Shown piece by piece: positions 4,542 to 56,898 of a stretch of 64,000 nt of DNA. A model generated the notes under the pieces. That model saw nothing but the letters and a program-made list of their open reading frames with translations, did not search any database and was not told the DNA's origin. A program made the position numbers and the translations under genes. The DNA is from a virus. Location of the stretch: IMG/VR virus record IMGVR_UViG_3300009068_004979; one strand, given 5' to 3'. Position 1 is the stretch's first letter, and every line of letters begins with the position of its first letter.

Positions 4542-4567
4542 TTTTTTATATCTTGTAATAATATCTC

Positions 4568-5131: not shown

Positions 5132-5149
5132 AGGACTAAATATAAATGT

Positions 5150-5584: not shown

Positions 5585-5587
5585 ACC

Positions 5588-8244: not shown

Positions 8245-8789
8245 AGTTTAAGTTTGACATTCTAGTAGAACAGCTTCTTGGTGAGAAGAAAGAACGCATA
8301 GCTCTCTTACCGGGTGGGTTTAAGCCACCACATAAGGGCCATTTTAAAGCATTAAGTTATATCTTGCAAGATGCAGATCGTGGCATTGTTTATATTGGAA
8401 ATAAGGAAAGGGATGGTGTAACGGCTGAACAGGCAAAGCAAATTTGGGAAATATATAAAAAGTATTTACCAAAGCCTATTGATATAGAAATTACAAAAAT
8501 TACACCAGTAAAATCGGTCTATGATTTTGTCGATAGTAATCTAGATAAACCTGTTATTGTTGGAGCTTCAGGTGATGAGGATTTAAAGCGTTTTGAATAT
8601 TTTAAGAAACATGCAGAAAAATATCCGTTAGTTACTGTTGTCAATATACCACCTCAGTATAATAGAATTTCAGGTACTGAAGCAAGAAAGAAAATTATAG
8701 GAAAAGAATCAGACGCCGTAGAGTATTTTGTACCTGAAATATCTGATCAAGATTTACTTAAGATAAAGAATATACTTCTTATTTCTTAG
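8241..8789 (+). CDS. HxGH cytidylyltransferase-like nucleotidyltransferase
   Basis: PGGFKPPHKGH and ISGTEAR motifs. Confidence 0.8.
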   Translation: MKFKFDILVEQLLGEKKERIALLPGGFKPPHKGHFKALSYILQDADRGIVYIGNKERDGVTAEQAKQIWEIYKKYLPKPIDIEITKITPVKSVYDFVDSNLDKPVIVGASGDEDLKRFEYFKKHAEKYPLVTVVNIPPQYNRISGTEARKKIIGKESDAVEYFVPEISDQDLLKIKNILLIS

Positions 8790-9894: not shown

Positions 9895-10308
9895 ATGACA
9901 TCTTTTAAGCAATTCTATAAAAGACCTGTACTCGGTGTTGGTGAAGTAATAGATATTGCTGGTATAGGGTCTGTAAAAGCCAAGGTTGATAGCGGTAATG
10001 AGGCTTTTAATGTTTTGCATGGTACCAATATAAAGGATGAAAATAACGAAGTAAGCTTTACAACAATTAATAATAAGAACATTAAAAAGCCTAAGCACGA
10101 TACTATTACAATTCATATAGGCAGCGGTGTGAAGGAAGACAGGCCTGTGGTTTTATTTGATATAAAGATAGATGGTAAAGAGTATAAAAATATACCTTTT
10201 AGTATAGCTGATAGAACGGAGAACGATGAGCCTGTTCTAGTAGGTGAGCCGTTTGTGAGACAGCTAAATGCTCTTATTGATGTGAAGAGAGATAATACAG
10301 AAGATTAA
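9895..10308 (+). CDS. Retropepsin-like protease (RimK-associated 'ATP-dependent zinc protease' family)
   Basis: AKVDSGN catalytic-type motif, E.RPVV, DR...PVLVG. Confidence 0.75.
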   Translation: MTSFKQFYKRPVLGVGEVIDIAGIGSVKAKVDSGNEAFNVLHGTNIKDENNEVSFTTINNKNIKKPKHDTITIHIGSGVKEDRPVVLFDIKIDGKEYKNIPFSIADRTENDEPVLVGEPFVRQLNALIDVKRDNTED

Positions 10309-10958
10309 TTATTCTTCATGTTGGCAACAAAAGTATAAAATTCTGCTCGAACAGCAGCATCATTCATAAAGTCACCACTTAGCTTGCTTGTCTTCATCTC
10401 ACAACCATCATGCTTAATACCGCGGAGACATGCACATGTATGAGTTGCACTCACCATAACAGCTACACCGCGATTCTTCTCGCATACTTCATTAATTGCA
10501 TCATGAATTTGAATAGTAAGACCTTCTTGTATCTGAGGTCTGCGCGCATAAAACTCCACAATACGATTCAGCTTACTCAAGCCAATTACTCTGCCTTCAA
10601 GAGAAGGAATATAGGCTACATGTGCTTTACCGGTAAAAGCGAGATGATGATGACTGCACAAGCTCTTGACTGGAATACCACCTTGAAACACCATGCCATC
10701 ATAACCATTGCTCGGAAATGATGTTACTTTTGGTGGTTCATTATAACATCCTGCAGCAAGATCCTGCACAAAAGCTTTAGCAACACGACGAGGTGTATTG
10801 GTACTATTCGGATCATTACGCCAATCAAAGCCTAGAGCATCAAGATATGCTTCATAAGCTTTTGCAGCTTTCTCAATAATCTCAACTTTCTCTCCCTCTG
10901 TATGAGGATGGTTTCCGTTGGCAAACTTCAATCTTACAACTTTACTATATTCTGACAT
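10305..10958 (-). CDS. folE: GTP cyclohydrolase I
   Basis: TPRRVAK, SLCSHH, GLSKLNRIV, RPQIQE, HTCACLRG. Confidence 0.95.
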   Translation of the reverse strand: MSEYSKVVRLKFANGNHPHTEGEKVEIIEKAAKAYEAYLDALGFDWRNDPNSTNTPRRVAKAFVQDLAAGCYNEPPKVTSFPSNGYDGMVFQGGIPVKSLCSHHHLAFTGKAHVAYIPSLEGRVIGLSKLNRIVEFYARRPQIQEGLTIQIHDAINEVCEKNRGVAVMVSATHTCACLRGIKHDGCEMKTSKLSGDFMNDAAVRAEFYTFVANMKNN

Positions 10959-10966
10959 ATTGTGTT

Positions 10967-10994
10967 ATTATAATATATGTTTTACGTAGTTCAA
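10967..10994 (-). promoter_or_regulatory. Sigma70-like promoter of folE
   Basis: TTGAAC-N16-TATAAT-N8-ATG. Confidence 0.65.
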
Positions 10995-12141: not shown

Positions 12142-12924
12142 ATGAATTACGAAAGTACAAAGATAATTGAATTAGGTTCTTGCGCATTTAGACAATGGAG
12201 AGCTGATAGTCATTGCAAATTTATACATGGTTACAGACTAGTAGCTAAGTTCTGGTTTAAATGTAATCATTTAGATGATAGAAACTGGGTTGTTGATTTT
12301 GGTGGTCTAAAAGAACTCAAACAAGTACTCGAAAAACAATTTGACCATACATTATGCGTTTCAGCTGACGATCCTCAGATAGAGCTTTTGAAGCAATTAC
12401 ATACTGTCGGAGCATGTGATTTGCGCATTATGCCGAAGGGAGTTGGTATTGAGAGAACAGCGGAATGGTGCTTTGATGTTGCTGATGGACATATTAGAGG
12501 TCTTACAAGCAATAGATGCTGGGTTGATAGAGTTGAGGTATGGGAACATGAAAAGAATTCTGCAATTGTGAGCTATGAGCATACATGTATTGCAAATCAT
12601 AATTCTTACGCTGCAGATAGACATATTGCAGAGCAATATGAATTACCATTTAATGGAAATGAAACAATATCAACAACCATACAGCCAAATTTACACATGT
12701 CAACAACAGTAGCTGCTGGTATTAATATCGATAATGCTAATATAACACCAGTTGATGCCCCGACAGATCCAAATACTACTCGTCCAGCTCCTGTGGGTAA
12801 TCAGAAATCTGTAATTACACAGAGCAATACTAAGCCCGATCACGCTGCTCCAGCTCGAGTAGGCAAAGCTCCTGTTACACAGGGCTGGTCTAATCCATTT
12901 GCTGGAACAAGCTGGGGCGCATAA
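12142..12924 (+). CDS. queD: 6-carboxy-5,6,7,8-tetrahydropterin synthase with a C-terminal extension
   Basis: HCKFIHGY, VDFGGLK, FDHT, EVWEH. Confidence 0.9.
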   Translation: MNYESTKIIELGSCAFRQWRADSHCKFIHGYRLVAKFWFKCNHLDDRNWVVDFGGLKELKQVLEKQFDHTLCVSADDPQIELLKQLHTVGACDLRIMPKGVGIERTAEWCFDVADGHIRGLTSNRCWVDRVEVWEHEKNSAIVSYEHTCIANHNSYAADRHIAEQYELPFNGNETISTTIQPNLHMSTTVAAGINIDNANITPVDAPTDPNTTRPAPVGNQKSVITQSNTKPDHAAPARVGKAPVTQGWSNPFAGTSWGA

Positions 12925-13896: not shown

Positions 13897-13924
13897 TTGA
13901 CTAGCTACAAATATACTTTATAAT
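13897..13924 (+). promoter_or_regulatory. Sigma70-like promoter of queE
   Basis: TTGACT-N16-TATAAT-N6-ATG. Confidence 0.7.
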
Positions 13925-13930
13925 ACACTT

Positions 13931-14671
13931 ATGATCAATAATTCTACCATCTTCCTCAGTGACGATAAGATATTCTATACAATTGAAGGTGAAGGAGAAC
14001 ACATAGGTAAGCCCTCTGTATTCATGAGATTATCCATGTGCAATCTCACATGTCAGGGCTTTAAATCAGCTGATGCTCCCTATGGTTGTGATAGTTTTAT
14101 AAGCTGGTCAGTTAAAAATAAGCTCACAATACAAGACATTTTAAATATGCTTGAATCTAATGGATATACGCGATATTTGCAGAATGGTGCTATTTGGAAG
14201 ATAACTGGTGGTGAACCGCTTATTCAGCAGAATAAGCTTCTAGAACTTGTTGATCAATATATATTTAGATTTGGTTATATACCGAAGATTGATTTTGAAA
14301 CTAACGCTACCATTATGCCTGATCAGCAATGGCTTGATTGGAAGGCTACATTTACAACATCACCAAAGCTGAGTAATAATGGTGATCCCGTTGAGAAGAG
14401 ATATAAACCTGAAGTATTGAAATGGCATGCTAAAAATGGATCAGGGTTTAAGTTTGTTGTGAATGGGCCCACCGATCTAAATGAGGTAATGTCACGATAT
14501 ATCAATGATCTTGGTGTTCCAAAGCATCGTGTATGGCTCATGCCATGCTGCGGCAGCAGAGATGAACATACAGTAAAAGCTGCAGCAATCGCAGAGATTT
14601 GTAAAGAAAATAATTTTAATTTCAGTCCACGGCTACAGCTAGTCATCTGGGATAAAGCGCTCAAGGTATAA
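13931..14671 (+). CDS. queE: 7-carboxy-7-deazaguanine synthase (radical SAM)
   Basis: FYTIEGEG, CNLTC...CDS, ITGGEP, ETN, SPKL. Confidence 0.93.
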   Translation: MINNSTIFLSDDKIFYTIEGEGEHIGKPSVFMRLSMCNLTCQGFKSADAPYGCDSFISWSVKNKLTIQDILNMLESNGYTRYLQNGAIWKITGGEPLIQQNKLLELVDQYIFRFGYIPKIDFETNATIMPDQQWLDWKATFTTSPKLSNNGDPVEKRYKPEVLKWHAKNGSGFKFVVNGPTDLNEVMSRYINDLGVPKHRVWLMPCCGSRDEHTVKAAAIAEICKENNFNFSPRLQLVIWDKALKV

Positions 14672-14909: not shown

Positions 14910-14946
14910 TTGTTGCAAATATTCCATAAACCATTAAAATAGTATA

Positions 14947-15684
14947 ATGAGAATTGCCATATGTGGAAGTGCTTGCCAAGGTAAAACTACTCTTGTTAAC
15001 GATTTTATAAAAGCCTGGCCTAATTATAAAAAATCTGCAGAATCATACCGGGAGGCAATAAAGAAAGAAAATCTCAAGATTAACAAAGAGATCAACAAAG
15101 ACAGTCAATGGAAAATTTTAAATTGTCTTATTGATGATGTTCAGAAGACAAACAAGAACGACTATGTAATTTTTGATCGGTGTCCAATTGATAATCTTGT
15201 ATATTCTCTCTGGAGTTTTGAGAAACAAACATCAGATATTGATAGAGAATTTATTGACAAATGCATTCCACTAGTTCGTGAAAGCATGAAGTTTATTGAT
15301 ATTATCTTCTTTGTACCCATTACAAAAGTTGCCCCGGTGCAGATTGAACCAAAAGATAATCGAGAGATTGATAAAGAATTTATAGAAGAAACAGATAATA
15401 TTTTTAAGGCTATTGAATATAGCCTGATGAACAAAGGAACCTGCCCCTTCTTCAATGATGATGATAGACCACCAATCATTGAAGTGTTTGGTTCACCAGA
15501 GCAAAGAATAGAAATTATTAAGCTATATGTTAATAAGGACGGGGATGTTGTTGATGACGGGAGTAGTGTTTTGAGCACAGAAAATATTGATATGATGGAA
15601 AAGCTTCTCAGAGAACAAAGAGAAGCCGGTTATCAAGAGAAAATCGAACAAAAATTAAAAAATAAAATCATCCTTGGTGAATAA
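14947..15684 (+). CDS. P-loop nucleotide/nucleoside kinase-like protein (AAA_28/NadR type)
   Basis: GSACQGKTT, FDRCPID, DIIFFVP. Confidence 0.75.
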   Translation: MRIAICGSACQGKTTLVNDFIKAWPNYKKSAESYREAIKKENLKINKEINKDSQWKILNCLIDDVQKTNKNDYVIFDRCPIDNLVYSLWSFEKQTSDIDREFIDKCIPLVRESMKFIDIIFFVPITKVAPVQIEPKDNREIDKEFIEETDNIFKAIEYSLMNKGTCPFFNDDDRPPIIEVFGSPEQRIEIIKLYVNKDGDVVDDGSSVLSTENIDMMEKLLREQREAGYQEKIEQKLKNKIILGE

Positions 15685-38857: not shown

Positions 38858-40396
38858 ATGGCAAAACAAATCCGTCCTACACAGGCATACATTGATGAGT
38901 CTCGCGCTCGTGTGTTGCTTGAGAAGTGGGGTCCAGTATTGGACTACTCTTCCAACAACGTAAGAGCAATCGAAGACGATCACACACGTCTCAATACCGC
39001 CATTCTCTTGGAAAACCAGGAAAAGTGGTGCTTTGAGGCTAACAACGCTTCCGGTGGTACTGCAGGCGGCCTACCTTATGGTCAGGCTGGCTCAGGCGTA
39101 TTCGGTGGTGAAACAGGTGGCGCCGGTTCATTCGGCAACCAGTTCCCATCACAGAATGATAACGCATACGCCGCAGGCGATGCTCGTCTTCCGAAGATTC
39201 TCATCCCAATGATCAGACGTACGTTCCCTGAGTTGATCACTAACGAAATCGTTGGTGTTCAGCCCATGAGCGGCCCTGTCGGACTTGCTTTCGCACTTCG
39301 TTACAAGTATGAGCCTACCAACTTAGGTTATCAGTCTGGTTCGTTGGACGCAAGTTCATCATCCCAGTACTACAACAACCTAAGAGGTCTCTCTGCTAAC
39401 CCTGAATTGGGTTACCAGTACCTCGACACAAGATTCACTGGTGCTTCGTCATCAGCCTTGTCCGGGGCCACAGGTTTCTTCCAGATGCTCGATCAAGATC
39501 GTGGCGTTGCTCAGTTGCTCAGCCAGTTTGAGTTAACAAGCAATATCCCACAGATTGTGGTTAGCTTTGAGAAGACTGCAGTTGAAGCTGGTACACGTAG
39601 ACTCGCAGCTCGTTGGTCAGTTGAACTCGAGCAGGACTTGAAGAACATGAACGGTATTGATATCGACACTGAGCTCACAAACGCTATGTCTTATGAGCTA
39701 CAGGCCGAAATCGATCGTGAAATGATCATCAGAATGATTCAGACAGCACTCAACGCCGGTTACGGCCAAGGGTTCTCAGTCTGGTCACCTGCTTCAGCAG
39801 ACGGCCGTTGGCTCGTCGAGCGCAATCGTGACTTCTACCAGAGACTCATCGTTGAGGCTAACCGTATCGCTGTACGTAACCGCCGTGGTTCAGCTAATTT
39901 CGTTGTTGCAACACCTCGTGTGTGCGCAATCCTCGAAATGCTACCTGAATTCCAGTGGGCACCAGTACAGGGTAATGTTAATACTCAGCCAGTCGGAGTT
40001 GCAAAAGTGGGTTCCCTCGCAGGTCGCTTCAACGTGTATCGTGATACACGCACAGAGGCACAGTTCGAAGCAAATGCTGGCGGTAATTTCGGTGGCTCGG
40101 GTCCATTCCCAGCCAACGGTGTTACAGTCGCAAATACTCGTACAACACGTCTTGAATATGCTCTCCTTGGCTACAAGGGTCCGGAATTCTACGACACTGG
40201 TATCATCTATTGTCCGTACATTCCAGTCATGGTGCAGAGAACAATTGGTCCAAATGACTTCGCTCCACGCGTTGGTCTATTGACCCGCTATGGTGTTGTT
40301 GACAACATCTTTGGCGCTAATCTCTACTACCACGTCATCATCCTTCAGGGTCTTGGCACAGCATTCCTACCTGGTCAGCAAGCCGTTTACTTCTAA
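38858..40396 (+). CDS. gp23: Major capsid protein
   Basis: LLEKW.PVL, LLENQE, VGVQPMSGPVGLAFALR, ELEQDLK, YCPYIP, RYG. Confidence 0.97.
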   Translation: MAKQIRPTQAYIDESRARVLLEKWGPVLDYSSNNVRAIEDDHTRLNTAILLENQEKWCFEANNASGGTAGGLPYGQAGSGVFGGETGGAGSFGNQFPSQNDNAYAAGDARLPKILIPMIRRTFPELITNEIVGVQPMSGPVGLAFALRYKYEPTNLGYQSGSLDASSSSQYYNNLRGLSANPELGYQYLDTRFTGASSSALSGATGFFQMLDQDRGVAQLLSQFELTSNIPQIVVSFEKTAVEAGTRRLAARWSVELEQDLKNMNGIDIDTELTNAMSYELQAEIDREMIIRMIQTALNAGYGQGFSVWSPASADGRWLVERNRDFYQRLIVEANRIAVRNRRGSANFVVATPRVCAILEMLPEFQWAPVQGNVNTQPVGVAKVGSLAGRFNVYRDTRTEAQFEANAGGNFGGSGPFPANGVTVANTRTTRLEYALLGYKGPEFYDTGIIYCPYIPVMVQRTIGPNDFAPRVGLLTRYGVVDNIFGANLYYHVIILQGLGTAFLPGQQAVYF

Positions 40397-41093: not shown

Positions 41094-42008
41094 TTACTGC
41101 CGCGGTGTTTTAACAAAATACTTGTACTGATCCACTAGCACTTTATCAAGTAATTCTGCTTTGTTTGCTCTGGTAGGATTAATATCAATGCCACCTCTGC
41201 GCACATACAAGCAAGACACTACAAGTTCTTCTGGTTCAAATCTATCATAGATTCTTTTGTAGATGGTCTCGCAAATCTCTTCATGAAAATGACACTCGTC
41301 CCTGAATGATACAACATACTTTAACACCGATGTTACATTGAACAGATGCTTGCCTTTGTAGTGAATGTACACATCACCCCAATCTGGCTGTGATGTTACT
41401 CTGCAATTGCTCTTCAATAAAGCAGAATGAAATCTCTGAGTCTTAGATTCAGTTAATAATTCTGCGCTCAACAAATTAGGATTCTCCTTGTAATCTGCAG
41501 TCTCAATAGTTGTAACATCAATAAGATTCTCCAGAGTAGGATAAGAGCCATTACTAAAGATAGGCGGATAGTAAACACTATCATCAACTGCAGCGGTCAA
41601 ACGAACATAGACCCGAACTTCTGTTTCTAATAGGTCGGATAGATCATTACGAATTTTTGCTTCAAGCTGTTGCAGCACGTTAATTATTGTGCCATCAAAC
41701 ACTTCCATGTTAAAGGAATTCATGTACAGTTTGATGGACTTGGATTCCACAATGTATTTGTTATTAGCAGGATACACAATCTTTGCCACAGCTGCAATGG
41801 GCATGCCATATTCTGTTAAGCATGAAACTTCATATGCATTCCAAATATCATAACCGGCAAAGGGAGGTGCATCATCACTGATATTCAAGTGTTTTCTGTT
41901 GTTAGCCCGGGGCTCTCTAACGAGCAGAGATGGATCATAGGTACACTTGTATCCTGTTATTTTGCCCAGATGCTTTGATATGTTACTGTTATCTAATTCC
42001 GTGTTCAT
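41094..42008 (-). CDS. queF: NADPH-dependent 7-cyano-7-deazaguanine reductase (bimodular)
   Basis: YDPSLL, DIWNAYEVS, VESKSIKLY, KSNCRVTSQPDWG, FHEEIC, RRGGIDINP. Confidence 0.95.
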   Translation of the reverse strand: MNTELDNSNISKHLGKITGYKCTYDPSLLVREPRANNRKHLNISDDAPPFAGYDIWNAYEVSCLTEYGMPIAAVAKIVYPANNKYIVESKSIKLYMNSFNMEVFDGTIINVLQQLEAKIRNDLSDLLETEVRVYVRLTAAVDDSVYYPPIFSNGSYPTLENLIDVTTIETADYKENPNLLSAELLTESKTQRFHSALLKSNCRVTSQPDWGDVYIHYKGKHLFNVTSVLKYVVSFRDECHFHEEICETIYKRIYDRFEPEELVVSCLYVRRGGIDINPTRANKAELLDKVLVDQYKYFVKTPRQ

Positions 42009-42567
42009 TAAGTTTTATTTTAATTGCTTCCATTCGATCTTCCACTGTTCCCTTTAAGATAGTTACTTTTCCCTTTAGTCTTTCATCTGACAACCAGAAA
42101 TTTTCATATAGATCAATAATTGCATCTCTAAATTCTTTATTAACACTTCTCTCACCATCATCTACTAACGGAACATCATGAGGACTTGGATAGAAGATAT
42201 GATCATACCTATGAATATGATTCACATAGTACATCAATCCCAAACTATTAGACACAGGAAAATCATTCAACTTCCCTCTAGCAAAATAAGTTGTAAACAC
42301 CATGCCATCCATCAAGCAACGATCATGCAGTATGCCTTGAAATCCAAACCCTTTGTAATTATAGAATAAATTCTCAAACTCCTTATTAAGAATCAAAGTT
42401 TGAGTTACATCATTTGCACCAGTTTCATTTATATCAACCCCATACTCGCGTTTAATCAGTCTAGTAACTTCATCAATGTAGCAAAGCTTAGAACCATAGT
42501 ACTCCTTACACTTCTTTAAAAGAGTAGTCTTACCCGAACACTGCGGACCTGTAAAAGTAAAAATCAT
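41989..42567 (-). CDS. P-loop nucleotide kinase-like protein (AAA_28)
   Basis: FTGPQCSGKTT, HDRCLMD, DDGER; ATGA overlap at 42564-42567. Confidence 0.75.
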   Translation of the reverse strand: MIFTFTGPQCSGKTTLLKKCKEYYGSKLCYIDEVTRLIKREYGVDINETGANDVTQTLILNKEFENLFYNYKGFGFQGILHDRCLMDGMVFTTYFARGKLNDFPVSNSLGLMYYVNHIHRYDHIFYPSPHDVPLVDDGERSVNKEFRDAIIDLYENFWLSDERLKGKVTILKGTVEDRMEAIKIKLNEHGIR

Positions 42568-42911
42568 TTGCCCCACTTACCATTATATACTATTTCTGCT
42601 ATAATGCCATACACTGCTGAGTCTCTAAATGCATCCATGACAGGCTCATTAGCCGAATTCATGGCTTTCTTTTTTAAGACCAAATTAATTAGGCGTTGAA
42701 TTTTATCATTGAGGCGCACCACAATGGCAGAAACTGCTGCAAATTTATCCTCTTGTTTTACCAGATCAGAACCCAAAGAAATATTTCCTGGACCATAGTC
42801 AAACTGTTTCTTGCAAAATGTTTCGTATAATTCAGCTTGTATTTTTTGAAACTCTTTGCATGTTTCTGGAAAATTTTTCTCAACGTATTTGACAATATCT
42901 TCTTTGTTCAT
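42564..42911 (-). CDS. DUF1599 / nucleotide-modification-associated domain protein
   Basis: F.KKQ.DYG, R..DK..RL, E...D...D...YGII. Confidence 0.75.
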   Translation of the reverse strand: MNKEDIVKYVEKNFPETCKEFQKIQAELYETFCKKQFDYGPGNISLGSDLVKQEDKFAAVSAIVVRLNDKIQRLINLVLKKKAMNSANEPVMDAFRDSAVYGIIAEIVYNGKWGK

Positions 42912-43867
42912 AATCTTACCCCGTACGGTACTTTACTTAAATTTAACGCGCCCAGATTGCAACCACCAGCATAACTTATTGCACTCTGCAAGTCCTGCTT
43001 TATCTCTTCCATTTTTTCGAGATATGTGAATGTATCTGTTTCCATGAGCTTCATTGTACCTTCAATATTTTTCTTTTCAATCTTATTATGCTGACTTGCA
43101 GAACCAAAGTATTGTTTATACCGCCTGCCACTTGCATCCTTAACAAGTGGTGCCGGGCTATCCGAACAAGCAGCAAATATGGACCCACACATGACCATGC
43201 TTGCACCTGCTACAAGAGCTTTAGCGATATCACCGTTGCAGCGCACTCCGCCGTCTGCAATAATGGGAATATTTCTATCCTTGGCGCATTCTATTATGCA
43301 GCTAAACATAGGATAGGTGAACCCTGTCTTGTCTTTTGTAGTGCATGCATACCCACCACCAATGCCGGCTTTTACAACATCAGCCCCAACATTATGTAAA
43401 TATTCTACACCTTGAAAAGTTGCAACATTGCCTGCAATAATCTTTGCATTGGGAATCACTTGCTTGATATGTTTAATTTGATCTGCTACTTTTGAATGAT
43501 GGCCATGAGCAACATCTATGGTTATAAAATCGACTCTCATCATGCTCTGCGCAATGGATGTTAATATGTTCTTATCTTTCTGCTGTATCCCTACACTTAT
43601 AGAGATAGTATGAAACTCTTGAAGATTAGCATAGCGGACAAAGTTGTTTATATCTTCATCAAACCTATGCATGATATAAAAATAGCCATGCTTATCTAAA
43701 AGCATGCATGTGTCTGTATCTACACAACACTTCATATTTGCAGGCACAACTGGTAGCTTAAATGTACGAGATCCAAACATTATATCTGTATCAATCTCTG
43801 CTCTGGATTGTACTGAATTAAAATTAGGCTTGAGAAAAACGTTTTCGTAGTGTAGAGATAAATCCAT
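42908..43867 (-). CDS. guaC: GMP reductase
   Basis: PVVPANM, IMHRF, DVAHGH, AGNVAT, GIGGGYACTT, IIADGG, FGSAS, SAISYAGG; no CBS insert. Confidence 0.9.
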   Translation of the reverse strand: MDLSLHYENVFLKPNFNSVQSRAEIDTDIMFGSRTFKLPVVPANMKCCVDTDTCMLLDKHGYFYIMHRFDEDINNFVRYANLQEFHTISISVGIQQKDKNILTSIAQSMMRVDFITIDVAHGHHSKVADQIKHIKQVIPNAKIIAGNVATFQGVEYLHNVGADVVKAGIGGGYACTTKDKTGFTYPMFSCIIECAKDRNIPIIADGGVRCNGDIAKALVAGASMVMCGSIFAACSDSPAPLVKDASGRRYKQYFGSASQHNKIEKKNIEGTMKLMETDTFTYLEKMEEIKQDLQSAISYAGGCNLGALNLSKVPYGVRL

Positions 43868-43868
43868 A

Positions 43869-44438
43869 TTAGCGTTCTAAGATTTTATATGCTGTGAAAA
43901 AGCTTTTCCAGAGATCAAGTGCTGTGTCTCGCAATGCACCGTAAACACCACCTAACGACATTCCCTCAATGCCTGTGCCCTGGCTCATTAATATTTCTCC
44001 TTCATCTACCCCAGGTGTTACTCTGTGTATAACACAGCCTGCTAATTTATACCCCTCAGCAAAAGCTCTTTCTTGTGGATTGAATCCCTTTAAAGAAGGA
44101 TATTTATCTATCAATCCAGGATGCAAATTATATATTTCATATTTTTCACAAATCTCTTTGGGAATAATTCTTAAAAACCCATGCAATGTAATAACAGGGT
44201 TCTCAAAACAATTCAATACGCCTTCATAGTCACTCACAGTTGGTTTCTGCGGCAACTGAATCCAAATATTTTCATTTAGTTTCTGTGATCTAAATTCTGT
44301 TACTACTTTTAATCTAATATTAGTATTCTTATGATTCTGTTTGTTTGTTGCAATACAATCTGGGTATATGCCAAGTGCATTACTAAGATCATATATCTCA
44401 GTACCAGTTTGCGAAAAAAATGTTACCCAAGGTCTCAT
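43869..44438 (-). CDS. PurN-like formyltransferase (DpdN-like, putative preQ1 formyltransferase)
   Basis: FFSQTG, LHGFLRII, YNLHPG, GCVIHRVTPGVDEG. Confidence 0.82.
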   Translation of the reverse strand: MRPWVTFFSQTGTEIYDLSNALGIYPDCIATNKQNHKNTNIRLKVVTEFRSQKLNENIWIQLPQKPTVSDYEGVLNCFENPVITLHGFLRIIPKEICEKYEIYNLHPGLIDKYPSLKGFNPQERAFAEGYKLAGCVIHRVTPGVDEGEILMSQGTGIEGMSLGGVYGALRDTALDLWKSFFTAYKILER

Positions 44439-45247
44439 CTGCGAACAATCTTCTTAAACATTGCAGTGTTATACTTTACAAGTTCAAGTTGATCATCTGT
44501 AAAATTGTGTGTAATGAGGTCAGCTAATTTAGTTGATGGTTTATTATCTAAACCATAATCAGCATCATACTTCAATCCATGTATAGCAGCAACAACGGGA
44601 TTGCTGGTATCACAACTAACAATATTGTTAATATCTCTATCCACATAATATCTAAACTCCTTAGCTAAAGAGCAACCAAGCAGATGATGCGGCTTGCTCC
44701 AATTCCATACACCTGTATTTATGAGATCAGCAATGAAGCGCTGACGGCCAGTGCACCACTTCTCAAGATGTGTCATACCTTCACCAGTAGTTAGGTAATA
44801 ACTAAAATCAAAACTTATGGCAATCATGTCAGCATTATCTGCCATAAATTTGTAGCATTCTTTTAACTCATGCCAAGTTTTACCCTGCACAGCGCCTATG
44901 GCTTTTGTAAGAAAACTATCCTTAATATTGAGTGTGTAATTCGCAAAAGCTTTGAAGCTTTGCATTGTGCCTTGAGCATCTTCCAGCACATCTGGCACAA
45001 TAAACATGTTTGGCTTGATCTCTTTAGCCTTTACCCAGAACTCGCGACTATCAAAAGCTTTACCCAATTCAAAAATAGAATTATCAAGCAGCACTTCTCT
45101 ATTGTAAATATGTCTAGCTGATTTAAAAAAGTCATTATATGCAGGATATTGATCCAAGAGATGCACAAGACAGTAGTCAAAATCATTATAATCCCTTGAG
45201 AGATCAAGTATAGATACAGGAGATTCGTGAGATACTTTCATTAGCAT
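44435..45247 (-). CDS. TGT/DpdA-like guanine transglycosylase (DpdA3-like)
   Basis: LLDNSIFELG, VPDV, GAVQG, HHLLG, SCDTS (TGT-type D, QG, HLLG, D motifs); leads the queF operon. Confidence 0.7.
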   Translation of the reverse strand: MLMKVSHESPVSILDLSRDYNDFDYCLVHLLDQYPAYNDFFKSARHIYNREVLLDNSIFELGKAFDSREFWVKAKEIKPNMFIVPDVLEDAQGTMQSFKAFANYTLNIKDSFLTKAIGAVQGKTWHELKECYKFMADNADMIAISFDFSYYLTTGEGMTHLEKWCTGRQRFIADLINTGVWNWSKPHHLLGCSLAKEFRYYVDRDINNIVSCDTSNPVVAAIHGLKYDADYGLDNKPSTKLADLITHNFTDDQLELVKYNTAMFKKIVRR

Positions 45248-45253
45248 AATAAC

Positions 45254-45281
45254 ATTATACAAGTAAATAATAATATATCAA
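45254..45281 (-). promoter_or_regulatory. Sigma70-like promoter of the deazaguanine operon
   Basis: TTGATA-N16-TATAAT-N6-ATG(45247). Confidence 0.7.
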
Positions 45282-45283
45282 CA

Positions 45284-48001
45284 ATGAATTATCCACAATA
45301 TTACGGTAATTACCTGGGCATAGTTGTACAGAATAACGATCCGCTTAAGCGCGGCCGTGTTAAAGTTTTTGTACCACATATTTCACCGACTGTATACAAA
45401 AATTGGACAGAAATTAAAAGGGACAAGAAATTTAAATTCGTTGGTGTTAACACATACAGTGATTTAACAGATGTTGTAGAAGATTTAAAAAGGATTTTAC
45501 CTTGGGCTGAATGTGCTGCTCCTCTAGCAGGTCAATCAAGTAGTGGTCGGTATAATGTGTATCAAAATACCGGTTCCATAAGCAGCAGCAACAAGTTACC
45601 CACAACAGTATCTAATCTTTCATCATGCGAAATAACGCCAGAAATTTTAACCAAATATACTCAAAATCGTGATGCAATCGGTGAGAAGCCAGGCAACATG
45701 TATGATGCAAATTACTTCCGACTTAATGATGCATTCAGTGATCCCACGCAAACCAATGTTAATAATGTTAATAAATTGAGTTATGCATATACACCTGAAT
45801 GCTATAGTAACAGTGCTAATGGTGCTTTTGCTATCCCCAATGTAGGGTCTCATTTGTGGGTATTTTTTAACGCCGGTGATCCATTAAGACCAGTTTATTT
45901 TGCTTCTTCATTTGGTGTTGAGGATTGGAGAAGTATTTTTGATGCTGGTAGTGCTCGCTCAACAGATTTTTCTATTGTAACAGGAGCTAGTCAGGGCATG
46001 GATTACCCGGGTGAATATGAAAACAAAAGACTTGCTGCAAACGAAGAATATAATATCAATACAGAAAATTATCGCAACAAATATGTTATCAACCAGAAAG
46101 GCGGCACATTACAATTTGTAAATTCTGATAATCGAGAGATGTTAAAGCTAACTCACTTCTCCGGTTCATTCAAGGAATTTAATAATTATGCAAATATTGA
46201 GCTTGCTACTGCTAATGATCAAAAATTAGTAATGGGAGATCAATTCCTAACGGTGCGCGGTGATAGAAATGAATATACTGAAAAAGATCATGACTTCCTA
46301 GTCAAAGGAGATTATTTTAGAAAAATTGGCAATTTGAACGCTGACCTAGCCAAACAATGGAAGGGGATTGTCAGTGAAATTGCAGACTTGAAACAGCTGT
46401 TTGATATTCAACGCACTAATGGAACAAGTACAGGTGTTCCAAAACTTTCTTCAAAATTACAGAAAAAATTAGGCAGAGCTGCACCTTGTCCAGTATGCTC
46501 TGATCCTTTCAATACATATTTTTATTATAATAATTCTTACCTGCCTGTAGGGTTTACTAATCAAGTAAACGGAACATTAGCTGACAGTGGTGGTGATTAC
46601 TTGTACTCCATGTCCATTGTAAATGGTGTTTCACTACCTAGTGTTAGATACCCCGGTCTTCTGGGCACAGTAAACTATACCAGCCCCAATACAGTGCTAG
46701 GTGGTGCCGTTGATTTTTCTGTGTGGCCATCAGGCAACGGTCGTATCTTTGGCGCCAAATGCCCATGCTGCAATGGTACAACTCTGAGCCCTTCATCCTA
46801 TGCAGGAGATTGGGTAGCCGATAGTAGAAAGTCTCAAATAACAGCTAAGATTAATAATCAAATTGCCACATTAGCTGAAATAGAGAAGAAAATGGGTCTG
46901 GGTGGTAATGAAATTGTAGAAATTACCAAACACAAAATTGAAACAATTGGAACAGTTATGAATGATTTCGGATCAATTAGAGTTGATCCACAAGGAAAAA
47001 TCTTCATAACAGATGTGCAGATAGCACCATATGGAGTATTCTATAACCGCCAGCCATCGCCACTCATTGAATATGTGCACGTGGATGACTTACCTGGTGG
47101 TAATTACACACTTAATGTATGTAATCGTTACAATGTGCAAGTGGGTTCTGGTGGTATCAATTTAAAAACATATGGACCCCTTAACATAGCAGGTGCCATT
47201 ACTAATGTAGCTGGTGAACAGGTCAATATTGCCAGTGAAAATGAAGTAAACATAGATGGTGGCAGAAGATTGTCACTCATTGCTGATATCATTAGCATCA
47301 GACAGAGAAACAGAAAGCAGGTTGTAATTGAAGGCAATCTTGGCATTACTGCTAATGCTACTGTAGCAGGCTCCATGCATGTGGAAGGTGAAATCTTTAC
47401 TAACCATGTAACCGCACCAGTGGAAATACAAGCTACAGAGCAGTCCACTGTGTATGGTGCTGCCGCAACAGACTTCAATAATAACAATGGCAAGATCATT
47501 GGCTTTGGTGTGCCCATGTCAAAATTGGCTCTTAAGGGTAGACTGGGCAAGTTCTACACACCCAATCAAGTGGGTACTGCATACATTGGTAAGACTGACA
47601 GCACTGTGTTTATTGGTAAAACAGATACTGCACAAATTGTTGGATACCTAAAACCTGCAGATGTTAGCGCCATGATAAAAGACGGCGATGGAGATCCATG
47701 CAGCGCTACCGGTAATGTACCAATTTATGGTAGCAATATTAACTGTGTCAAAGGTACTGATATTAATGGTGTGTATGGTTCCAATGAAGGTGGCACAGGT
47801 GCAACAGCTGAATCAATGCCCATCATTGTGTATGGCACTGGGCGCGATGATGACAGTGTCAAGATGGATCCACACAGTCACTTATTTAAAAACTTACCAC
47901 TCACACTATATGAGACAAATAGTGAAGTAAGAAAAGCTGCAAGTACCATTAACGACGGTGCTCAGGTCTGTTGCAATCCGGTTACAAATAATCAGAAATA
48001 A
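45284..48001 (+). CDS. gp5: gp5/VgrG-like baseplate hub and spike protein
   Basis: YLGIVVQNNDPLKRGRVKV, LPWA, IPNVG..WVFF..GD...PVYF OB fold; HSH near the C-terminus. Confidence 0.75.
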   Translation: MNYPQYYGNYLGIVVQNNDPLKRGRVKVFVPHISPTVYKNWTEIKRDKKFKFVGVNTYSDLTDVVEDLKRILPWAECAAPLAGQSSSGRYNVYQNTGSISSSNKLPTTVSNLSSCEITPEILTKYTQNRDAIGEKPGNMYDANYFRLNDAFSDPTQTNVNNVNKLSYAYTPECYSNSANGAFAIPNVGSHLWVFFNAGDPLRPVYFASSFGVEDWRSIFDAGSARSTDFSIVTGASQGMDYPGEYENKRLAANEEYNINTENYRNKYVINQKGGTLQFVNSDNREMLKLTHFSGSFKEFNNYANIELATANDQKLVMGDQFLTVRGDRNEYTEKDHDFLVKGDYFRKIGNLNADLAKQWKGIVSEIADLKQLFDIQRTNGTSTGVPKLSSKLQKKLGRAAPCPVCSDPFNTYFYYNNSYLPVGFTNQVNGTLADSGGDYLYSMSIVNGVSLPSVRYPGLLGTVNYTSPNTVLGGAVDFSVWPSGNGRIFGAKCPCCNGTTLSPSSYAGDWVADSRKSQITAKINNQIATLAEIEKKMGLGGNEIVEITKHKIETIGTVMNDFGSIRVDPQGKIFITDVQIAPYGVFYNRQPSPLIEYVHVDDLPGGNYTLNVCNRYNVQVGSGGINLKTYGPLNIAGAITNVAGEQVNIASENEVNIDGGRRLSLIADIISIRQRNRKQVVIEGNLGITANATVAGSMHVEGEIFTNHVTAPVEIQATEQSTVYGAAATDFNNNNGKIIGFGVPMSKLALKGRLGKFYTPNQVGTAYIGKTDSTVFIGKTDTAQIVGYLKPADVSAMIKDGDGDPCSATGNVPIYGSNINCVKGTDINGVYGSNEGGTGATAESMPIIVYGTGRDDDSVKMDPHSHLFKNLPLTLYETNSEVRKAASTINDGAQVCCNPVTNNQK

Positions 48002-52484: not shown

Positions 52485-52937
52485 TTATTCTATGTTACAG
52501 GGTTCCCAAGGGAAGGCAAGCCATGTTTTCTGGCTAAATTCTTTAACAAAGAAGTCTGGTCTAAATAATGTCTGTTTCTTCACATACAGGCAAGCCGCTT
52601 TAATCTCTTTAGACTCAAGAATACCCACGGTATCAATGAAGCTACTGCCAGTGTCCGAAAGATCATCCATGATAATAACCTTATTAAGTTTTTCGAAACT
52701 TGGCACTTGATAAATCTCTTTAACTATTTGCTCCTGATTTAAGTATGATTTATAACCCAGGCTGAATACTTTCTCTATGCCAAGTAAATGGCTTAGCATG
52801 ACTGCAGGTACTAGCCCACCGCGACTCAGACCTAAAATATTATATTCTTTATAATCAGGTAGCTGTTCTTTTATTTGATTAGCTAGCTTGTCACAATCAT
52901 TGCCAATTGTTTTCCAGCTTAGTTTTCTAATGCTCAT
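52485..52937 (-). CDS. Type I purine phosphoribosyltransferase (Gpt-like)
   Basis: GLSRGGLVPA, IIMDDLSDTGSS, WLAFPWE. Confidence 0.9.
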   Translation of the reverse strand: MSIRKLSWKTIGNDCDKLANQIKEQLPDYKEYNILGLSRGGLVPAVMLSHLLGIEKVFSLGYKSYLNQEQIVKEIYQVPSFEKLNKVIIMDDLSDTGSSFIDTVGILESKEIKAACLYVKKQTLFRPDFFVKEFSQKTWLAFPWEPCNIE

Positions 52938-52983
52938 TCAACCATAATAACGGAACTGTGCAAAAGTTCAATTAAAAAAGGTG

Positions 52984-55890: not shown

Positions 55891-56898
55891 ATGGCTCTGC
55901 CTCCTAATGCATTAGACGTAGCACGACTCAAGAGAATGTCACCACATTTGTCTTATCAAACATTGGCACAATCATTTGGCAATGCTCAAGCCACAATTAC
56001 TGCCCCACGCACACCTCCAGGGCCCATACAGCCTGCATACACAAACACAATTCGCTTGTGTGCATATCCTAATGCAGTACTTGCAGAAGATTTCGGTAGT
56101 AAGTGTGCCACCTTCATACAGTCGTTGTGCGGCTATGTAGCCAGTGATGTGGTTACTGCAGCATGCATATGTTCTGATGATAAAAATGCTCCTATCTTTC
56201 CTGGTAATGATTTTGGTCAGTATCCTGTGTCATTGCAGCAATTTTCTGGTCCGTTCTTCGCAGGTGGCATTGGTGGTTATCCATTCCCAGGCATTGTGGG
56301 ATTGTTTGCATGGTCTTCACACATCACTGACACAGGTGCATTGTTCTTATATGTGCAACCACACATTGGTGTTACAGTGGATGGTCGCTCCGGGTTCATG
56401 AATCGCAGAGGTCAAGGATCAGTTTCTGGCACATGTGGTGCAGTGGCTGCCGCGCAAGGTCGCATCATTGGCACACTGAGTGCAGTGCAACCCACATACC
56501 CAAGTAGTGAATTTACAGCCAATGATTTCCAGCAATTCACACTGACAAATATTTTGTGGAGCAATGCCACAGTGCGCAGTGCACTCACATCCAACCGTCA
56601 AACATACAATGATGTGGCAAGTCCTACACAGCAAGGCTATGGTGCCAGAATGGTTATAGCTACCAATGCTATTCGCGATGCATCAGCCAGTGTGGCAAGA
56701 AATTGCTTATCAGCTGCTTATACTGCTTTCTTTGGAGCCAATTCTGCACGTGATGTGTTCTTCAGTGTGGGTACTTTCATTAACGTGGACGATGGTTACA
56801 AGGCATATGTGGATGTGAACACATTTGAACGTTACAATGCTTACACTGGCAGGTTTGTTACACTAACCAATGCATTTACAGCGGGCCTATTACCTTAA
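55891..56898 (+). CDS. LCIB/C-type (limiting-CO2-inducible) beta-carbonic-anhydrase-like protein
   Basis: C.DD, GPFFAGGIGGYPF.G..G..A...H, PHIG, G...R.GQ, CGA (Cys/His/Cys Zn ligands). Confidence 0.78.
   Translation: MALPPNALDVARLKRMSPHLSYQTLAQSFGNAQATITAPRTPPGPIQPAYTNTIRLCAYPNAVLAEDFGSKCATFIQSLCGYVASDVVTAACICSDDKNAPIFPGNDFGQYPVSLQQFSGPFFAGGIGGYPFPGIVGLFAWSSHITDTGALFLYVQPHIGVTVDGRSGFMNRRGQGSVSGTCGAVAAAQGRIIGTLSAVQPTYPSSEFTANDFQQFTLTNILWSNATVRSALTSNRQTYNDVASPTQQGYGARMVIATNAIRDASASVARNCLSAAYTAFFGANSARDVFFSVGTFINVDDGYKAYVDVNTFERYNAYTGRFVTLTNAFTAGLLP

What the first reader, a model, noticed from the sequence alone, without database searches (positions are those of the whole stretch)
41989..43867. 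GMP reductase, kinase and DUF1599 in the operon suggest pool-level guanine replacement
Seen: these nucleotide-pool enzymes are wedged between the transglycosylase and QueF. A second kinase lies just downstream of queE (14947) and a purine PRTase (52485) shares the promoter class. Known: GuaC converts GMP to IMP. Inference: the exchange may occur on a nucleotide, with kinases building the modified triphosphate while PRTase and GuaC recycle displaced guanine and drain dGTP. This would be a pre-replicative route rather than base exchange on DNA.
Basis: inference. Interest (0 to 1): 0.72.

Follow-up and report, generated by a model that had tools for sequence, protein, structure and literature searches.

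The report
Nucleotide enzymes inside phage deazaguanine operon
An uncultured T4-like phage that probably replaces the guanine in its DNA with a formylated 7-deazaguanine carries a nucleoside-type kinase always found beside its base-swapping enzyme, which suggests without proving that the modified base is built on free nucleotides before DNA is copied; the GMP reductase and DUF1599 genes beside it are optional extras.

Summary
A tightly overlapping minus-strand operon behind a sigma70-like promoter reads dpdA3-dpdN-guaC-DUF1599-kinase-queF. A paralogous kinase follows queE, and a Gpt-like PRTase lies 7 kb away. The window is an uncultured T4-like phage whose cluster matches the formyl-preQ1 system of Flavobacterium phage immuto.

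The three genes are unequal evidence.
- **Kinase: the real signal.** DpdA3 sits beside a small P-loop kinase in 68 of 68 distinct IMG/VR loci, and in immuto, CP220, phiST and a Bacillus phage group. Its model is closest to nucleoside kinases (NadR-RNK Z 19.4, dCK, dGK). Relatives are fused to DpdN, to GNAT and to a dUTPase-family domain. Three DpdA1/2 phages with partial replacement have no such kinase.
- **GuaC: optional.** It is a near-canonical type-2 GMP reductase, present in 31 of 68 loci and absent from immuto, CP220 and phiST.
- **DUF1599: unexplained.** It travels with DpdN and has no recognisable fold.

I favour a pre-replicative route acting on free nucleosides or nucleotides (about 0.5), but it is unproven. 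The published view is post-replicative. This scan reached the same reading before on at least 21 other genomes.

The parts
45254..45281 (-). sigma70-like promoter TTGATA-16 nt-TATAAT, 6 nt upstream of the dpdA3 ATG
   Evidence: 11 of 12 consensus positions; sequence read. This is a consensus match only.
44435..45247 (-). dpdA3: DpdA3-subfamily 7-deazaguanine transglycosylase (270 aa from the ATG at 45247; the ORF opens at a TTG at 45262)
   Evidence: 45-46% identity over about 90% of its length to DpdA3 of immuto and CP220. Invariant LDNSIFELG and DTSNP motifs. Ten of 22 relatives weakly hit DUF6610, the DpdA4 family. The Atlas cluster is named transglycosylase.
43869..44438 (-). dpdN: PurN-like single-domain formyltransferase; 4-nt overlap with dpdA3
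   Evidence: Pfam Formyl_trans_N 55.5 bits. Best NCBIfam match is PurN. 46% identical to immuto DpdN.
42908..43867 (-). guaC: type-2 GMP reductase homologue
   Evidence: Present inside the operon in 26 of 68 distinct related loci and a few kb upstream in 5 more.
42564..42911 (-). DUF1599-like small helical protein (115 aa); 4-nt overlaps on both sides
   Evidence: AF2 model has pLDDT 90 and is all-helical. No significant fold match. Present in 57 of 68 distinct loci, all 57 of which also carry DpdN; 3 DpdN loci lack it.
41989..42567 (-). kinA: AAA_28 P-loop kinase with a nucleoside-kinase fold (192 aa)
   Evidence: AF2 model pLDDT 89.5. VIA Z 19.4 to the NadR RNK domain, 17.2 to dCK, 16.7 to dGK. 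Foldseek also finds thymidylate kinases.
41094..42008 (-). queF: two-domain NADPH-dependent preQ0 reductase; 20-nt overlap with kinA
   Evidence: Pfam QueF_N plus QueF; TIGR03138 264.7 bits against a cut-off of 293.
10305..10958 (-). folE: GTP cyclohydrolase I
   Evidence: Pfam 166.8 bits.
12142..12924 (+). queD: PTPS domain in residues 14-143, plus an unassigned C-terminal part
13931..14671 (+). queE: radical-SAM CDG synthase
   Evidence: phrog_2076, E 7e-43.
14947..15684 (+). kinB: second AAA_28 kinase (245 aa, 22% identical to kinA) downstream of queE
   Evidence: Two AAA_28 genes are present in each of four related large contigs. The folE-queD-queE-kinB order recurs in L129 and L131.
52485..52937 (-). 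Gpt-like purine phosphoribosyltransferase
   Evidence: Pfam Pribosyltran 48.4 bits. NF006613 xanthine PRTase 73 bits against a cut-off of 138. One copy in relatives G002-G004 and in immuto; none in CP220.

Best explanation
**Shown.** The stretch is part of a six-gene operon behind an early-type (sigma70-like) promoter, dpdA3-dpdN-guaC-DUF1599-kinA-queF, in an uncultured T4-like phage. The phage also carries folE, queD, queE, a second kinase and a Gpt-like PRTase. By homology with Flavobacterium phage immuto, it should replace dG with 7-(formylamino)methyl-7-deazaguanine.

**Inferred mechanism.**
1. [quoted passage not shown]
2. DpdA3 swaps it for guanine on a free deoxyguanosine nucleoside or nucleotide, not (or not only) on finished DNA.
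3. The PurN-like DpdN formylates the aminomethyl group at that small-molecule stage.
4. kinA, a nucleoside-kinase-fold enzyme, and probably kinB re-phosphorylate the product. Host NDP kinase and the phage polymerase can then put it into DNA during replication.

**Accessory genes.** The Gpt-like PRTase returns the displaced guanine to GMP, and so to GTP, the precursor of preQ1. GuaC is an optional purine-economy enzyme of this lineage. It turns surplus GMP into IMP, which lowers the supply of G nucleotides and feeds AMP synthesis for an AT-rich genome. DUF1599 is an accessory of unknown activity that travels with DpdN.
For: **Gene identities:**

**DpdA3-kinase linkage.**
- It holds in 68 of 68 distinct IMG/VR loci that show both genes. 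Every apparent exception is cut by a contig end.
- The pair recurs in immuto and in CP220 as gp056/gp057, with an HD plus AAA_33 fusion gp055 beside them.
- It recurs in phiST, where an AAA_18 kinase CGPG_00066 lies beside DpdA3 CGPG_00065, with MazG CGPG_00068 nearby.
- It recurs in Bacillus phage BSTP12: the DpdA3-like gene scores hhalign 98%, and the neighbouring P-loop gene aligns with kinA at E 2e-4.
- Among 50,697 phage records, kinA's family is found only in DpdA3 phages.
- The kinases come from different P-loop families. That favours a need for kinase chemistry over a need for one specific binding partner.

**Fold.** kinA is closest to nucleoside kinases: NadR RNK Z 19.4 (rmsd 2.6 over 177 residues), dCK 17.2, dGK 16.7.

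**Fusions.** DpdN::kinase (P0244), kinase::dUTPase-family (P0196) and kinase::GNAT (P0183, P0184) each lie next to a DpdA3 gene.

**Pyrophosphatase-type genes next to DpdA3.** PRA-PH in immuto and L142, MazG in phiST, a dUTPase-family gene in L140, HD in CP220.

**Controls.** 9g, CAjan and Rosebush (DpdA1/2, partial replacement) have no AAA_28, AAA_18 or AAA_33 gene.

**DpdN.** It is a PurN-like single domain without the tRNA-binding C-domain of Fmt. PurN's own substrate is a 5'-phosphoribosyl amine (established knowledge).

**Literature (PMC10516641).** DpdA3 phages are 100% replaced. DpdA3 alone gave no modification in E. coli. ADG nucleoside was seen in CP220-infected cells.
Against: - No experiment or computation here shows DpdA3's substrate.
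- All characterised TGT/DpdA enzymes act on polynucleotides, and Cui et al. 2023 (PMC10516641) argue for post-replicative insertion.
- This lineage has no recognisable dGTP-destroying enzyme. HD, MazG and PRA-PH are absent from two complete relatives. How dGTP would be kept out of DNA is therefore unexplained.
- The DpdA3::QueF fusions show only that the free base is channelled to DpdA3, which fits either route.
- Each fusion architecture rests on one or two metagenomic contigs. Because the genes are neighbours, a fusion could arise from simple loss of a stop codon.
- GuaC and DUF1599 are dispensable for full replacement in immuto, CP220 and phiST. They also occur together in unrelated phages.
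Confidence: 0.5

Rival explanations
1. Post-replicative exchange, as published. DpdA3 swaps preQ1 (or formyl-preQ1) for guanine in newly made DNA. The PRTase, kinases and GuaC only handle the large amount of guanine released. The PRTase makes GMP, the kinases push it towards GTP for FolE, and GuaC diverts the surplus to IMP.
For: - Precedent from DpdA1, DpdA2 and bacterial DpdA acting on DNA (PMC6884629, PMC10164549), and the argument of Cui et al. (PMC10516641).
- kinB and the PRTase sit among folE, queD and queE, the genes that use GTP. In L131 the PRTase lies directly upstream of kinB.
- This lineage has no recognisable dGTPase.
- GuaC and the PRTase fit salvage equally well.
Against: - A nucleoside-kinase-fold enzyme is not what guanine to GMP to GDP needs; hosts already have Gmk.
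- Small DpdA3 phages such as phiST and BSTP12 keep the kinase next to DpdA3; no PRTase is annotated in the stretches read, but these two genomes were not searched for one.
- Fusions of the kinase to DpdN, GNAT and a dUTPase-family domain are hard to explain by guanine salvage.
- DpdA1/2 phages also release guanine but lack such kinases.
Confidence: 0.3
2. The small P-loop protein is not a metabolic kinase. It is an ATP-hydrolysing helper that lets DpdA3 work on DNA, as the ATPase DpdB does for bacterial DpdA.
For: - Bacterial DpdA needs ATP hydrolysis by DpdB to insert preQ0 into DNA (PMC10164549).
- Strict adjacency of the two genes.
- DpdA3 alone failed in E. coli (PMC10516641).
Against: - DpdB has a ParB-like fold, unrelated to kinA.
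- kinA superposes over its full length on nucleoside kinases.
- Different P-loop families fill the position in different lineages: AAA_28, and AAA_18 in phiST.
- One relative is fused to a dUTPase-family domain, which points to mononucleotide chemistry.
Confidence: 0.07
3. GuaC, DUF1599 and one or both kinases are general auxiliary nucleotide-metabolism genes with no specific role in the deazaguanine pathway. They would serve purine-pool balancing for an AT-rich genome or NAD salvage through an NadR-like riboside kinase, and merely landed in this operon.
For: - GuaC homologues occur in 76 phage records of many kinds, none listed as a deazaguanine phage.
- GuaC-like and DUF1599 genes lie together near RNR, dUTPase, thymidylate synthase and polymerase genes in crAss-like cr108_1 and in Microcystis phage Mel-JY01.
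- GuaC moves about in this lineage: inside the operon, 4 kb upstream, about 90 kb away, or absent.
- kinA's best structural match is the NadR riboside kinase, and the window has an NMNAT-like HIGH nucleotidyltransferase at 8241-8789.
Against: For kinA this fails: its linkage to DpdA3 and QueF is without exception, and its family is confined to DpdA3 phages among isolates. For GuaC and DUF1599 it may well be largely true.
Confidence: 0.1

Closest known systems
[quoted passage not shown] 2023, PMC10516641)
   Same: - Same gene order, DpdA3-DpdN-kinase-QueF.
- DpdA3 45%, DpdN 46%, QueF 46% and kinase 30% identical.
- A PRTase and folE/queD/queE lie nearby.
   Different: - The window inserts guaC and DUF1599 between dpdN and the kinase, has a second kinase, and lacks the PRA-PH pyrophosphatase that precedes DpdA3 in immuto.
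- No DNA-level similarity.
- The kinase is not discussed in the paper ('kinase' occurs 0 times in its text).
DpdA3 clusters of Campylobacter phage CP220 (dADG) and Cellulophaga phage phiST (dDG)
   Same: DpdA3 lies immediately beside a small P-loop kinase, and both phages are reported as fully replaced (PMC10516641).
   Different: - They stop at CDG-derived bases, with no QueF or DpdN.
- They carry HD-AAA_33 (CP220) or MazG (phiST) next to DpdA3.
- Neither has GuaC.
- phiST's kinase is AAA_18, not AAA_28.
Pre-replicative base-replacement systems: cyanophage S-2L Z-genome (PurZ, MazZ, DatZ; PMC8342488) and T4 hydroxymethyl-C (gp42, gp1 dNMP kinase, gp56 dCTPase; from general knowledge)
   Same: The proposed logic is the same: make a modified dNMP, phosphorylate it with a dedicated kinase, and remove the canonical dNTP. 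The outcome is also the same, 100% replacement.
   Different: - The modifying step would be a base exchange by a TGT-family enzyme, which has no precedent on free nucleotides.
- No canonical-dNTP hydrolase is recognisable in this lineage.
- None of this has been shown biochemically.
Bacterial Dpd system, DpdA with ATPase DpdB (PMC10164549)
   Same: A transglycosylase of the same superfamily depends on an ATP-using partner encoded next to it.
   Different: DpdB has a ParB-like fold and acts with DNA. It modifies fewer than 1 in 200 nucleotides at specific sites. kinA has a nucleoside-kinase fold.
Type-2 bacterial GMP reductase (B. anthracis GuaC, PDB 1ypf/2a1y; NF003966, TIGR01306)
   Same: Full-length alignment at 257 bits, with the catalytic Cys/Thr loop and the EG motif conserved; 341.5 bits to NF003966.
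   Different: It falls 2.5 bits below the NF003966 cut-off and well below that of TIGR01306 (302 against 466). It is phage-encoded and sits in a DNA-modification operon. Its substrate has not been tested.
NadR ribosylnicotinamide kinase domain and deoxynucleoside kinases (dCK, dGK, Dm-dNK)
   Same: Whole-domain structural match (Z 16-19), Pfam AAA_28, and a Walker A motif.
   Different: Only 13-17% sequence identity. kinA is a stand-alone protein of 192 aa. Its acceptor substrate is unknown, and Foldseek ranks thymidylate (NMP) kinases about equally.

Membership tests
GMP reductase, type 2 (NF003966 / TIGR01306) | Whole-protein score at or above the curated cut-off | tested here: not met
   NF003966 gives 341.5 bits against a cut-off of 344, a miss of 2.5 bits over the full length. 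TIGR01306 gives 302.2 against 465.65.
GMP reductase, type 2 (NF003966 / TIGR01306) | Catalytic Cys with following Thr in the GxGxGxxCxT loop, and the downstream conserved EG | tested here: met
   Alignment to 1ypf: query GIGGGYACTTK against GIGPGKVCITK, and NIEG against NVEG. The assignment of these residues as catalytic comes from general knowledge of the IMPDH/GMPR family.
GMP reductase, type 2 (NF003966 / TIGR01306) | NADPH-dependent conversion of GMP to IMP | not testable with these tools
   Needs an enzyme assay.
DUF1599 (PF07659, nucleotide modification associated domain 1) | Match to the Pfam model | tested here: inconclusive
   The window's protein has no hit at E<=1. Sixteen of 24 homologues hit, with best E 8.6e-5, below the gathering score. 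Atlas neighbours carry PF07659 in 30-59% of members. tblastn finds annotated DUF1599 proteins at 33-35% identity.
AAA_28 / NadR-type and deoxynucleoside-type kinases | Pfam AAA_28 above cut-off, with a Walker A motif | tested here: met
   45.7 bits against 27. GPQCSGKTT is present, with G7, G12, K13 and T15 invariant.
AAA_28 / NadR-type and deoxynucleoside-type kinases | Whole-domain structural similarity to solved nucleoside kinases | tested here: met
   Z 19.4 to NadR RNK (177 residues, rmsd 2.6), 17.2 to dCK, 16.7 to dGK; the model's pLDDT is 89.5.
AAA_28 / NadR-type and deoxynucleoside-type kinases | Phosphorylation of a nucleoside or nucleotide; identity of the acceptor | not testable with these tools
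   Needs an enzyme assay. Foldseek also ranks thymidylate kinases high, so nucleoside and NMP acceptors cannot be told apart.
DpdA3 subfamily of 7-deazaguanine transglycosylases | Clear homology to the named DpdA3 proteins of immuto, CP220 and phiST | tested here: met
   45-46% identity over 88-93% of the length to immuto and CP220. phiST and BSTP12 proteins link to the family through L140-L142 and hhalign at 98%.
DpdA3 subfamily of 7-deazaguanine transglycosylases | Relation to the TGT/DpdA fold and its catalytic Asp residues | tested here: inconclusive
   No Pfam TGT or DpdA hit, and no PDB sequence hit with the family profile. There are weak hits to DUF6610, the DpdA4 family (10 of 22 members). 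Asp55 in LDNS and Asp213 in DTSNP are invariant; equating them with the TGT Asp residues rests on memory.
DpdA3 subfamily of 7-deazaguanine transglycosylases | Base exchange on DNA (the published assignment) | not testable with these tools
   Not shown for any DpdA3 in the literature held; attempts in E. coli failed (PMC10516641).
DpdN preQ1/dPreQ1 formyltransferase | Homology to immuto DpdN, a Formyl_trans_N domain, and co-location with DpdA3 and QueF | tested here: met
   46% identity to immuto's DpdN; Pfam 55.5 bits; the gene overlaps dpdA3 by 4 nt.
Pre-replicative base-replacement pathway (T4 hmC, S-2L Z type) | Dedicated kinase encoded with the modifying enzyme | tested here: met
   kinA is adjacent to DpdA3 in 68 of 68 loci and in four other lineages. 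This is met as gene content only.
Pre-replicative base-replacement pathway (T4 hmC, S-2L Z type) | Enzyme that destroys the canonical dNTP | tested here: not met
   No HD, MazG or PRA-PH gene in two complete relatives. Such genes do lie next to DpdA3 in immuto, phiST, CP220, L140 and L142. The window itself was not searched for these families.
Pre-replicative base-replacement pathway (T4 hmC, S-2L Z type) | Modified dNTP in the pool, incorporated by the polymerase | not testable with these tools
   Needs pool analysis of infected cells and polymerase assays.

The most novel reading that the evidence does not exclude
DpdA3 is not a DNA-modifying enzyme. It would be a TGT-family transglycosylase that exchanges guanine for a 7-deazaguanine on free deoxyguanosine or dGMP. 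Together with its ever-present nucleoside-type kinase, and a dNTP pyrophosphatase in many lineages, it would form a pre-replicative pathway. That pathway would explain the complete guanine replacement seen only in DpdA3 phages. Amine-tailoring enzymes (DpdN, and GNAT in some relatives) would act at the nucleotide stage.
Probability: 0.45. Interest if true: 0.85.

Novelty: new variant of a known kind. Interest (0 to 1): 0.64.

Why it matters
All 7-deazaguanine DNA modifications are currently described as post-replicative base exchange, yet DpdA3 phages alone reach 100% replacement and DpdA3 has never been shown to work on DNA.

If the exchange is made on free nucleosides or nucleotides, three things follow:
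- It would be the first TGT-family enzyme acting on a small molecule.
- It would add a new class of pre-replicative genome rewriting alongside the hmC, hmU and Z genomes.
- It would give a simple enzymatic route to 7-deaza-dGTP analogues.

The practical lesson from this window is which genes to test. The kinase is the constant partner of DpdA3. GuaC and DUF1599 are lineage-specific extras.

Tried and rejected
- **Complex prediction.** DpdA3 with kinA, both as alignments, scored 0.00 in both runs. That is no verdict and is not used either way.
- **DUF1599 as a MazG-like all-alpha NTP pyrophosphatase.** The confident model gave no significant Foldseek match. MazG-like chains 2gta, 2oig and 2p06 appeared only at E 3-5 and TM 0.4-0.58. 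VIA over 48,161 chains returned only generic helical hairpins at Z<=7.3. hhalign against immuto's PRA-PH protein found nothing. The idea is unsupported but not excluded.
- **Net charge of DpdA3 as a clue to its substrate.** The family is acidic (pI 4.7-6.4), but so is the DNA-acting DpdA1 of CAjan (pI 6.3). The measure is uninformative.
- **DpdA3 profile against PDB sequences.** No hit at E<=10.
- **Word-based search for longer kinA fusions.** None found. The exhaustive HMMER search did find fusions.
- **Longer DpdA3 proteins.** Only DpdA3::QueF and one DpdA3 with a NUMOD3 tail, which does not align with the kinase profile.
- **PF23859 (DpdA) and PF01702 (TGT) scans of control phages.** These found nothing, even where DpdA is known, so they could not be used.
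- **DNA-level search.** blastn of the operon against 50,697 phage records gave no match.
- **RNA families.** An Rfam scan of the whole window at gathering thresholds gave no family, so no known preQ1 riboswitch. The dpdA3 start lies 6 nt from the -10 hexamer, which leaves no room for a leader RNA here.
- **Papers not held.** Iyer et al. 2013 and Crippen et al. 2019 could not be read. What is said about ADG nucleoside in infected cells is taken from Cui et al.

Full report
**What is there.**
The window is part of an uncultured T4-like phage: it has a Gp23-type major capsid protein at 38858-40396 and a baseplate hub at 45284-48001. No similar DNA exists among 50,697 phage records. Between these late genes, on the opposite strand, lie six genes: dpdA3 (44435-45247), dpdN (43869-44438), guaC (42908-43867), a DUF1599-like gene (42564-42911), a P-loop kinase kinA (41989-42567) and queF (41094-42008). 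Neighbouring genes overlap by 4, 4, 4 and 20 nt, or are 1 nt apart. A sigma70-like promoter (TTGATA, 16 nt, TATAAT) ends 6 nt before the dpdA3 ATG. Elsewhere in the window are folE, queD, queE, a second AAA_28 kinase kinB directly after queE, and a Gpt-like phosphoribosyltransferase. Similar promoter-like hexamers at the same distance precede queE, folE, kinB and the PRTase. Such matches are no more frequent overall than in shuffled sequence.

**Identity of the three genes.**
- GuaC. It aligns over its full length with B. anthracis GMP reductase (257 bits) and keeps the catalytic Cys/Thr loop. It scores 341.5 bits against the NCBIfam GMP reductase model, 2.5 bits under the cut-off. It is most simply a working type-2 GMP reductase. 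That enzyme acts on the ribonucleotide GMP, so it cannot itself remove dGTP.
- The 115-aa protein. It does not reach the DUF1599 model itself, but 16 of 24 homologues do. Language-model neighbours carry PF07659, and tblastn finds annotated DUF1599 proteins of crAss-like phages. Its confident all-helical model (pLDDT 90) matches no solved fold above background. My guess that it might be a MazG-like pyrophosphatase found no support.
- kinA. It is an AAA_28 P-loop protein. Its model (pLDDT 89.5) superposes best on nucleoside kinases: the riboside-kinase domain of NadR (Z 19.4), human deoxycytidine kinase (17.2), human deoxyguanosine kinase (16.7) and insect and mycoplasma deoxynucleoside kinases (about 16). 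Foldseek also ranks thymidylate kinases highly.

**Known system.**
The transglycosylase is 45-46% identical to the DpdA3 proteins of Flavobacterium phage immuto and Campylobacter phage CP220. Immuto has the same order, DpdA3-DpdN-kinase-QueF, with a PRTase and folE/queD/queE nearby. Cui et al. 2023 (PMC10516641) showed that immuto DNA has all dG replaced by formyl-dPreQ1, named DpdA3 and DpdN, and concluded that all 7-deazaguanine modifications are post-replicative. They also report that DpdA3 could not be made to work in E. coli. The word 'kinase' does not occur in their text. The window is thus a new, diverged member of the fdPreQ1 type, with two extra genes in the operon.

**Which genes are constant.**
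I fetched 46 loci through DpdA3 and 79 through the kinase from IMG/VR and tabulated gene content. There are 68 distinct loci that show both genes.
- In all 68, kinA lies downstream of DpdA3 and QueF follows. Every locus lacking one partner is cut by a contig end.
- 8 loci are bare DpdA3-kinA-QueF.
- 60 have DpdN.
- 57 have the DUF1599 gene, and all 57 also carry DpdN; 3 loci with DpdN lack it.
- 26 have guaC inside the operon, and 5 more have it about 4 kb upstream.

A 91%-complete relative has no guaC at all, and another has it about 90 kb away. GuaC is absent from immuto, CP220 and phiST, the three phages measured as fully replaced. GuaC homologues are scattered over 76 phage records of many kinds. 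A GuaC-like gene and DUF1599 also lie together in ordinary nucleotide-metabolism modules of a crAss-like phage and a Microcystis phage.

**The kinase can carry the argument.**
Among isolated phages, kinA's family is found only in DpdA3 phages, mostly in two copies. Relatives of the window also have two.
- CP220. DpdA3 (gp056) is followed by an AAA_28 kinase (gp057) and preceded by an HD plus AAA_33 fusion.
- phiST. DpdA3 (CGPG_00065) is preceded by an AAA_18 kinase (00066), with a MazG pyrophosphatase (00068) two genes further upstream.
- Bacillus phage BSTP12 and its kin. A DpdA3-like gene, misannotated as NadR, overlaps a 187-aa P-loop gene that aligns with kinA along its whole length.
- Immuto. 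A PRA-PH (MazG-superfamily) gene lies just upstream of DpdA3.

By contrast, 9g, CAjan and Rosebush, which use DpdA1 or DpdA2 and replace at most about 30% of G, have no AAA_28, AAA_18 or AAA_33 gene. HVTV-1 (DpdA4) has an AAA_33 domain only inside a 1336-aa frame.

An exhaustive profile search found 377 cluster representatives at E<=1e-30. The longer ones are fusions: DpdN::kinase, kinase::dUTPase-family and, twice, kinase::GNAT. In each case the neighbouring gene is a DpdA3 (41-48% identical to the window's), with a dUTPase-family or PRA-PH gene upstream in two of the three loci. DpdA3 itself occurs fused to QueF.

**Reading.**
The recurrent pattern is [dNTP pyrophosphatase or HD] - DpdA3 - [nucleoside-type kinase, sometimes fused to an amine-acylating enzyme] - QueF. 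Several features point to chemistry on free nucleosides or nucleotides:
- the kinases are drawn from different P-loop families;
- the kinase is fused to a dUTPase-family domain and to DpdN;
- DpdN resembles PurN, which formylates a 5'-phosphoribosyl amine, not Fmt with its tRNA-binding domain;
- replacement is complete in DpdA3 phages only;
- ADG nucleoside was reported in infected cells (as cited in PMC10516641).

The most economical scheme is that DpdA3 exchanges guanine for the 7-deaza base on deoxyguanosine or dGMP, the kinases rebuild the nucleotide, and the polymerase incorporates it. The PRTase would return displaced guanine to GMP and thus to GTP, the precursor of preQ1. GuaC would dispose of surplus GMP. 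I put this at about 0.5.

**Caveats and rivals.**
Nothing here shows DpdA3's substrate, and every characterised member of the superfamily acts on a polynucleotide. This lineage has no recognisable dGTP-destroying enzyme. The fusions rest on single contigs of neighbouring genes.
- The published post-replicative route, with salvage of released guanine, remains viable (about 0.3). It explains the PRTase and GuaC as well as the pool route does, but it explains the kinase poorly.
- A DpdB-like ATP-driven helper role has a precedent (PMC10164549) but fits the fold and the fusions badly (about 0.07).
- That GuaC and DUF1599 are generic auxiliary genes is probably largely true, whichever route holds.

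**Standing in this scan.**
A word search of earlier notes, made after my own analysis, shows that the DpdA3-kinase theme was reached by other agents on at least 21 other genomes. One note reports DpdA3 fused directly to the kinase, which I did not verify. Another reaches the same view of DUF1599 as an optional companion of DpdN. These notes are not independent evidence.

Noticed in passing
window 45254-45281(-), 13897-13924(+), 10967-10994(-), 14913-14940(+), 52944-52971(-): Sigma70-like hexamer pairs with a 16-nt spacer end 6-8 nt before the start codons of dpdA3, queE, folE, kinB and the PRTase. With this shared geometry the mRNAs would have almost no leader and no room for a Shine-Dalgarno sequence.
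   Followed up: partly
L133 (Bacillus phage BSTP12, MW354678.1) 4336-5684: A DpdA3-like gene (BSTP12_038, annotated as NadR; other records call it polynucleotide kinase or integrase) overlaps a P-loop gene (BSTP12_039). They lie beside Gat-QueC, QueD, QueE, FolE and DNA polymerase I. This looks like an unrecognised DpdA3-type lineage in Bacillus siphophages (BSTP5/8/10/12, BSP7, BSP19).
   Followed up: partly
P0183, P0184; L142 4641-5639: Kinase::GNAT acetyltransferase fusions occupy the place of DpdN between DpdA3 and QueF, in a locus otherwise syntenic with immuto. They may mark an N-acetyl-preQ1 variant of the modification.
   Followed up: partly
P0121, P0122 (566-568 aa): DpdA3 is fused to a two-domain QueF. 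This implies that the preQ1 base is handed directly from the reductase to the transglycosylase.
   Followed up: partly
window 12142-12924(+): QueD is 260 aa, but its PTPS domain covers only residues 14-143. The C-terminal 115 residues or so are unassigned.
   Followed up: no
window 11008-12000(+): A 330-aa ORF between folE and queD has no Pfam or NCBIfam match. It is conserved in the same position in L129 (46% identity).
   Followed up: no
window 55891-56898(+): A protein with an LCIB/LCIC-type beta-carbonic-anhydrase domain (Pfam LCIB_C_CA, 83.9 bits), which is unusual in a phage.
   Followed up: no
window 8241-8789(+): A HIGH-motif cytidylyltransferase-like (NMNAT-like) gene (21.8 bits, cut-off 21). 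Together with the NadR-like kinases it raises the possibility of a phage NAD-salvage function for kinB.
   Followed up: no
L050 (crAss-like cr108_1) 5787-9082; L049 (Microcystis phage Mel-JY01) 6791-11929: DUF1599 and a GuaC/IMPDH-like gene lie within 2-4 kb of each other in nucleotide-metabolism and replication modules, in phages with no deazaguanine genes in the stretch examined. This suggests a link between these two families that is independent of DpdA3.
   Followed up: partly
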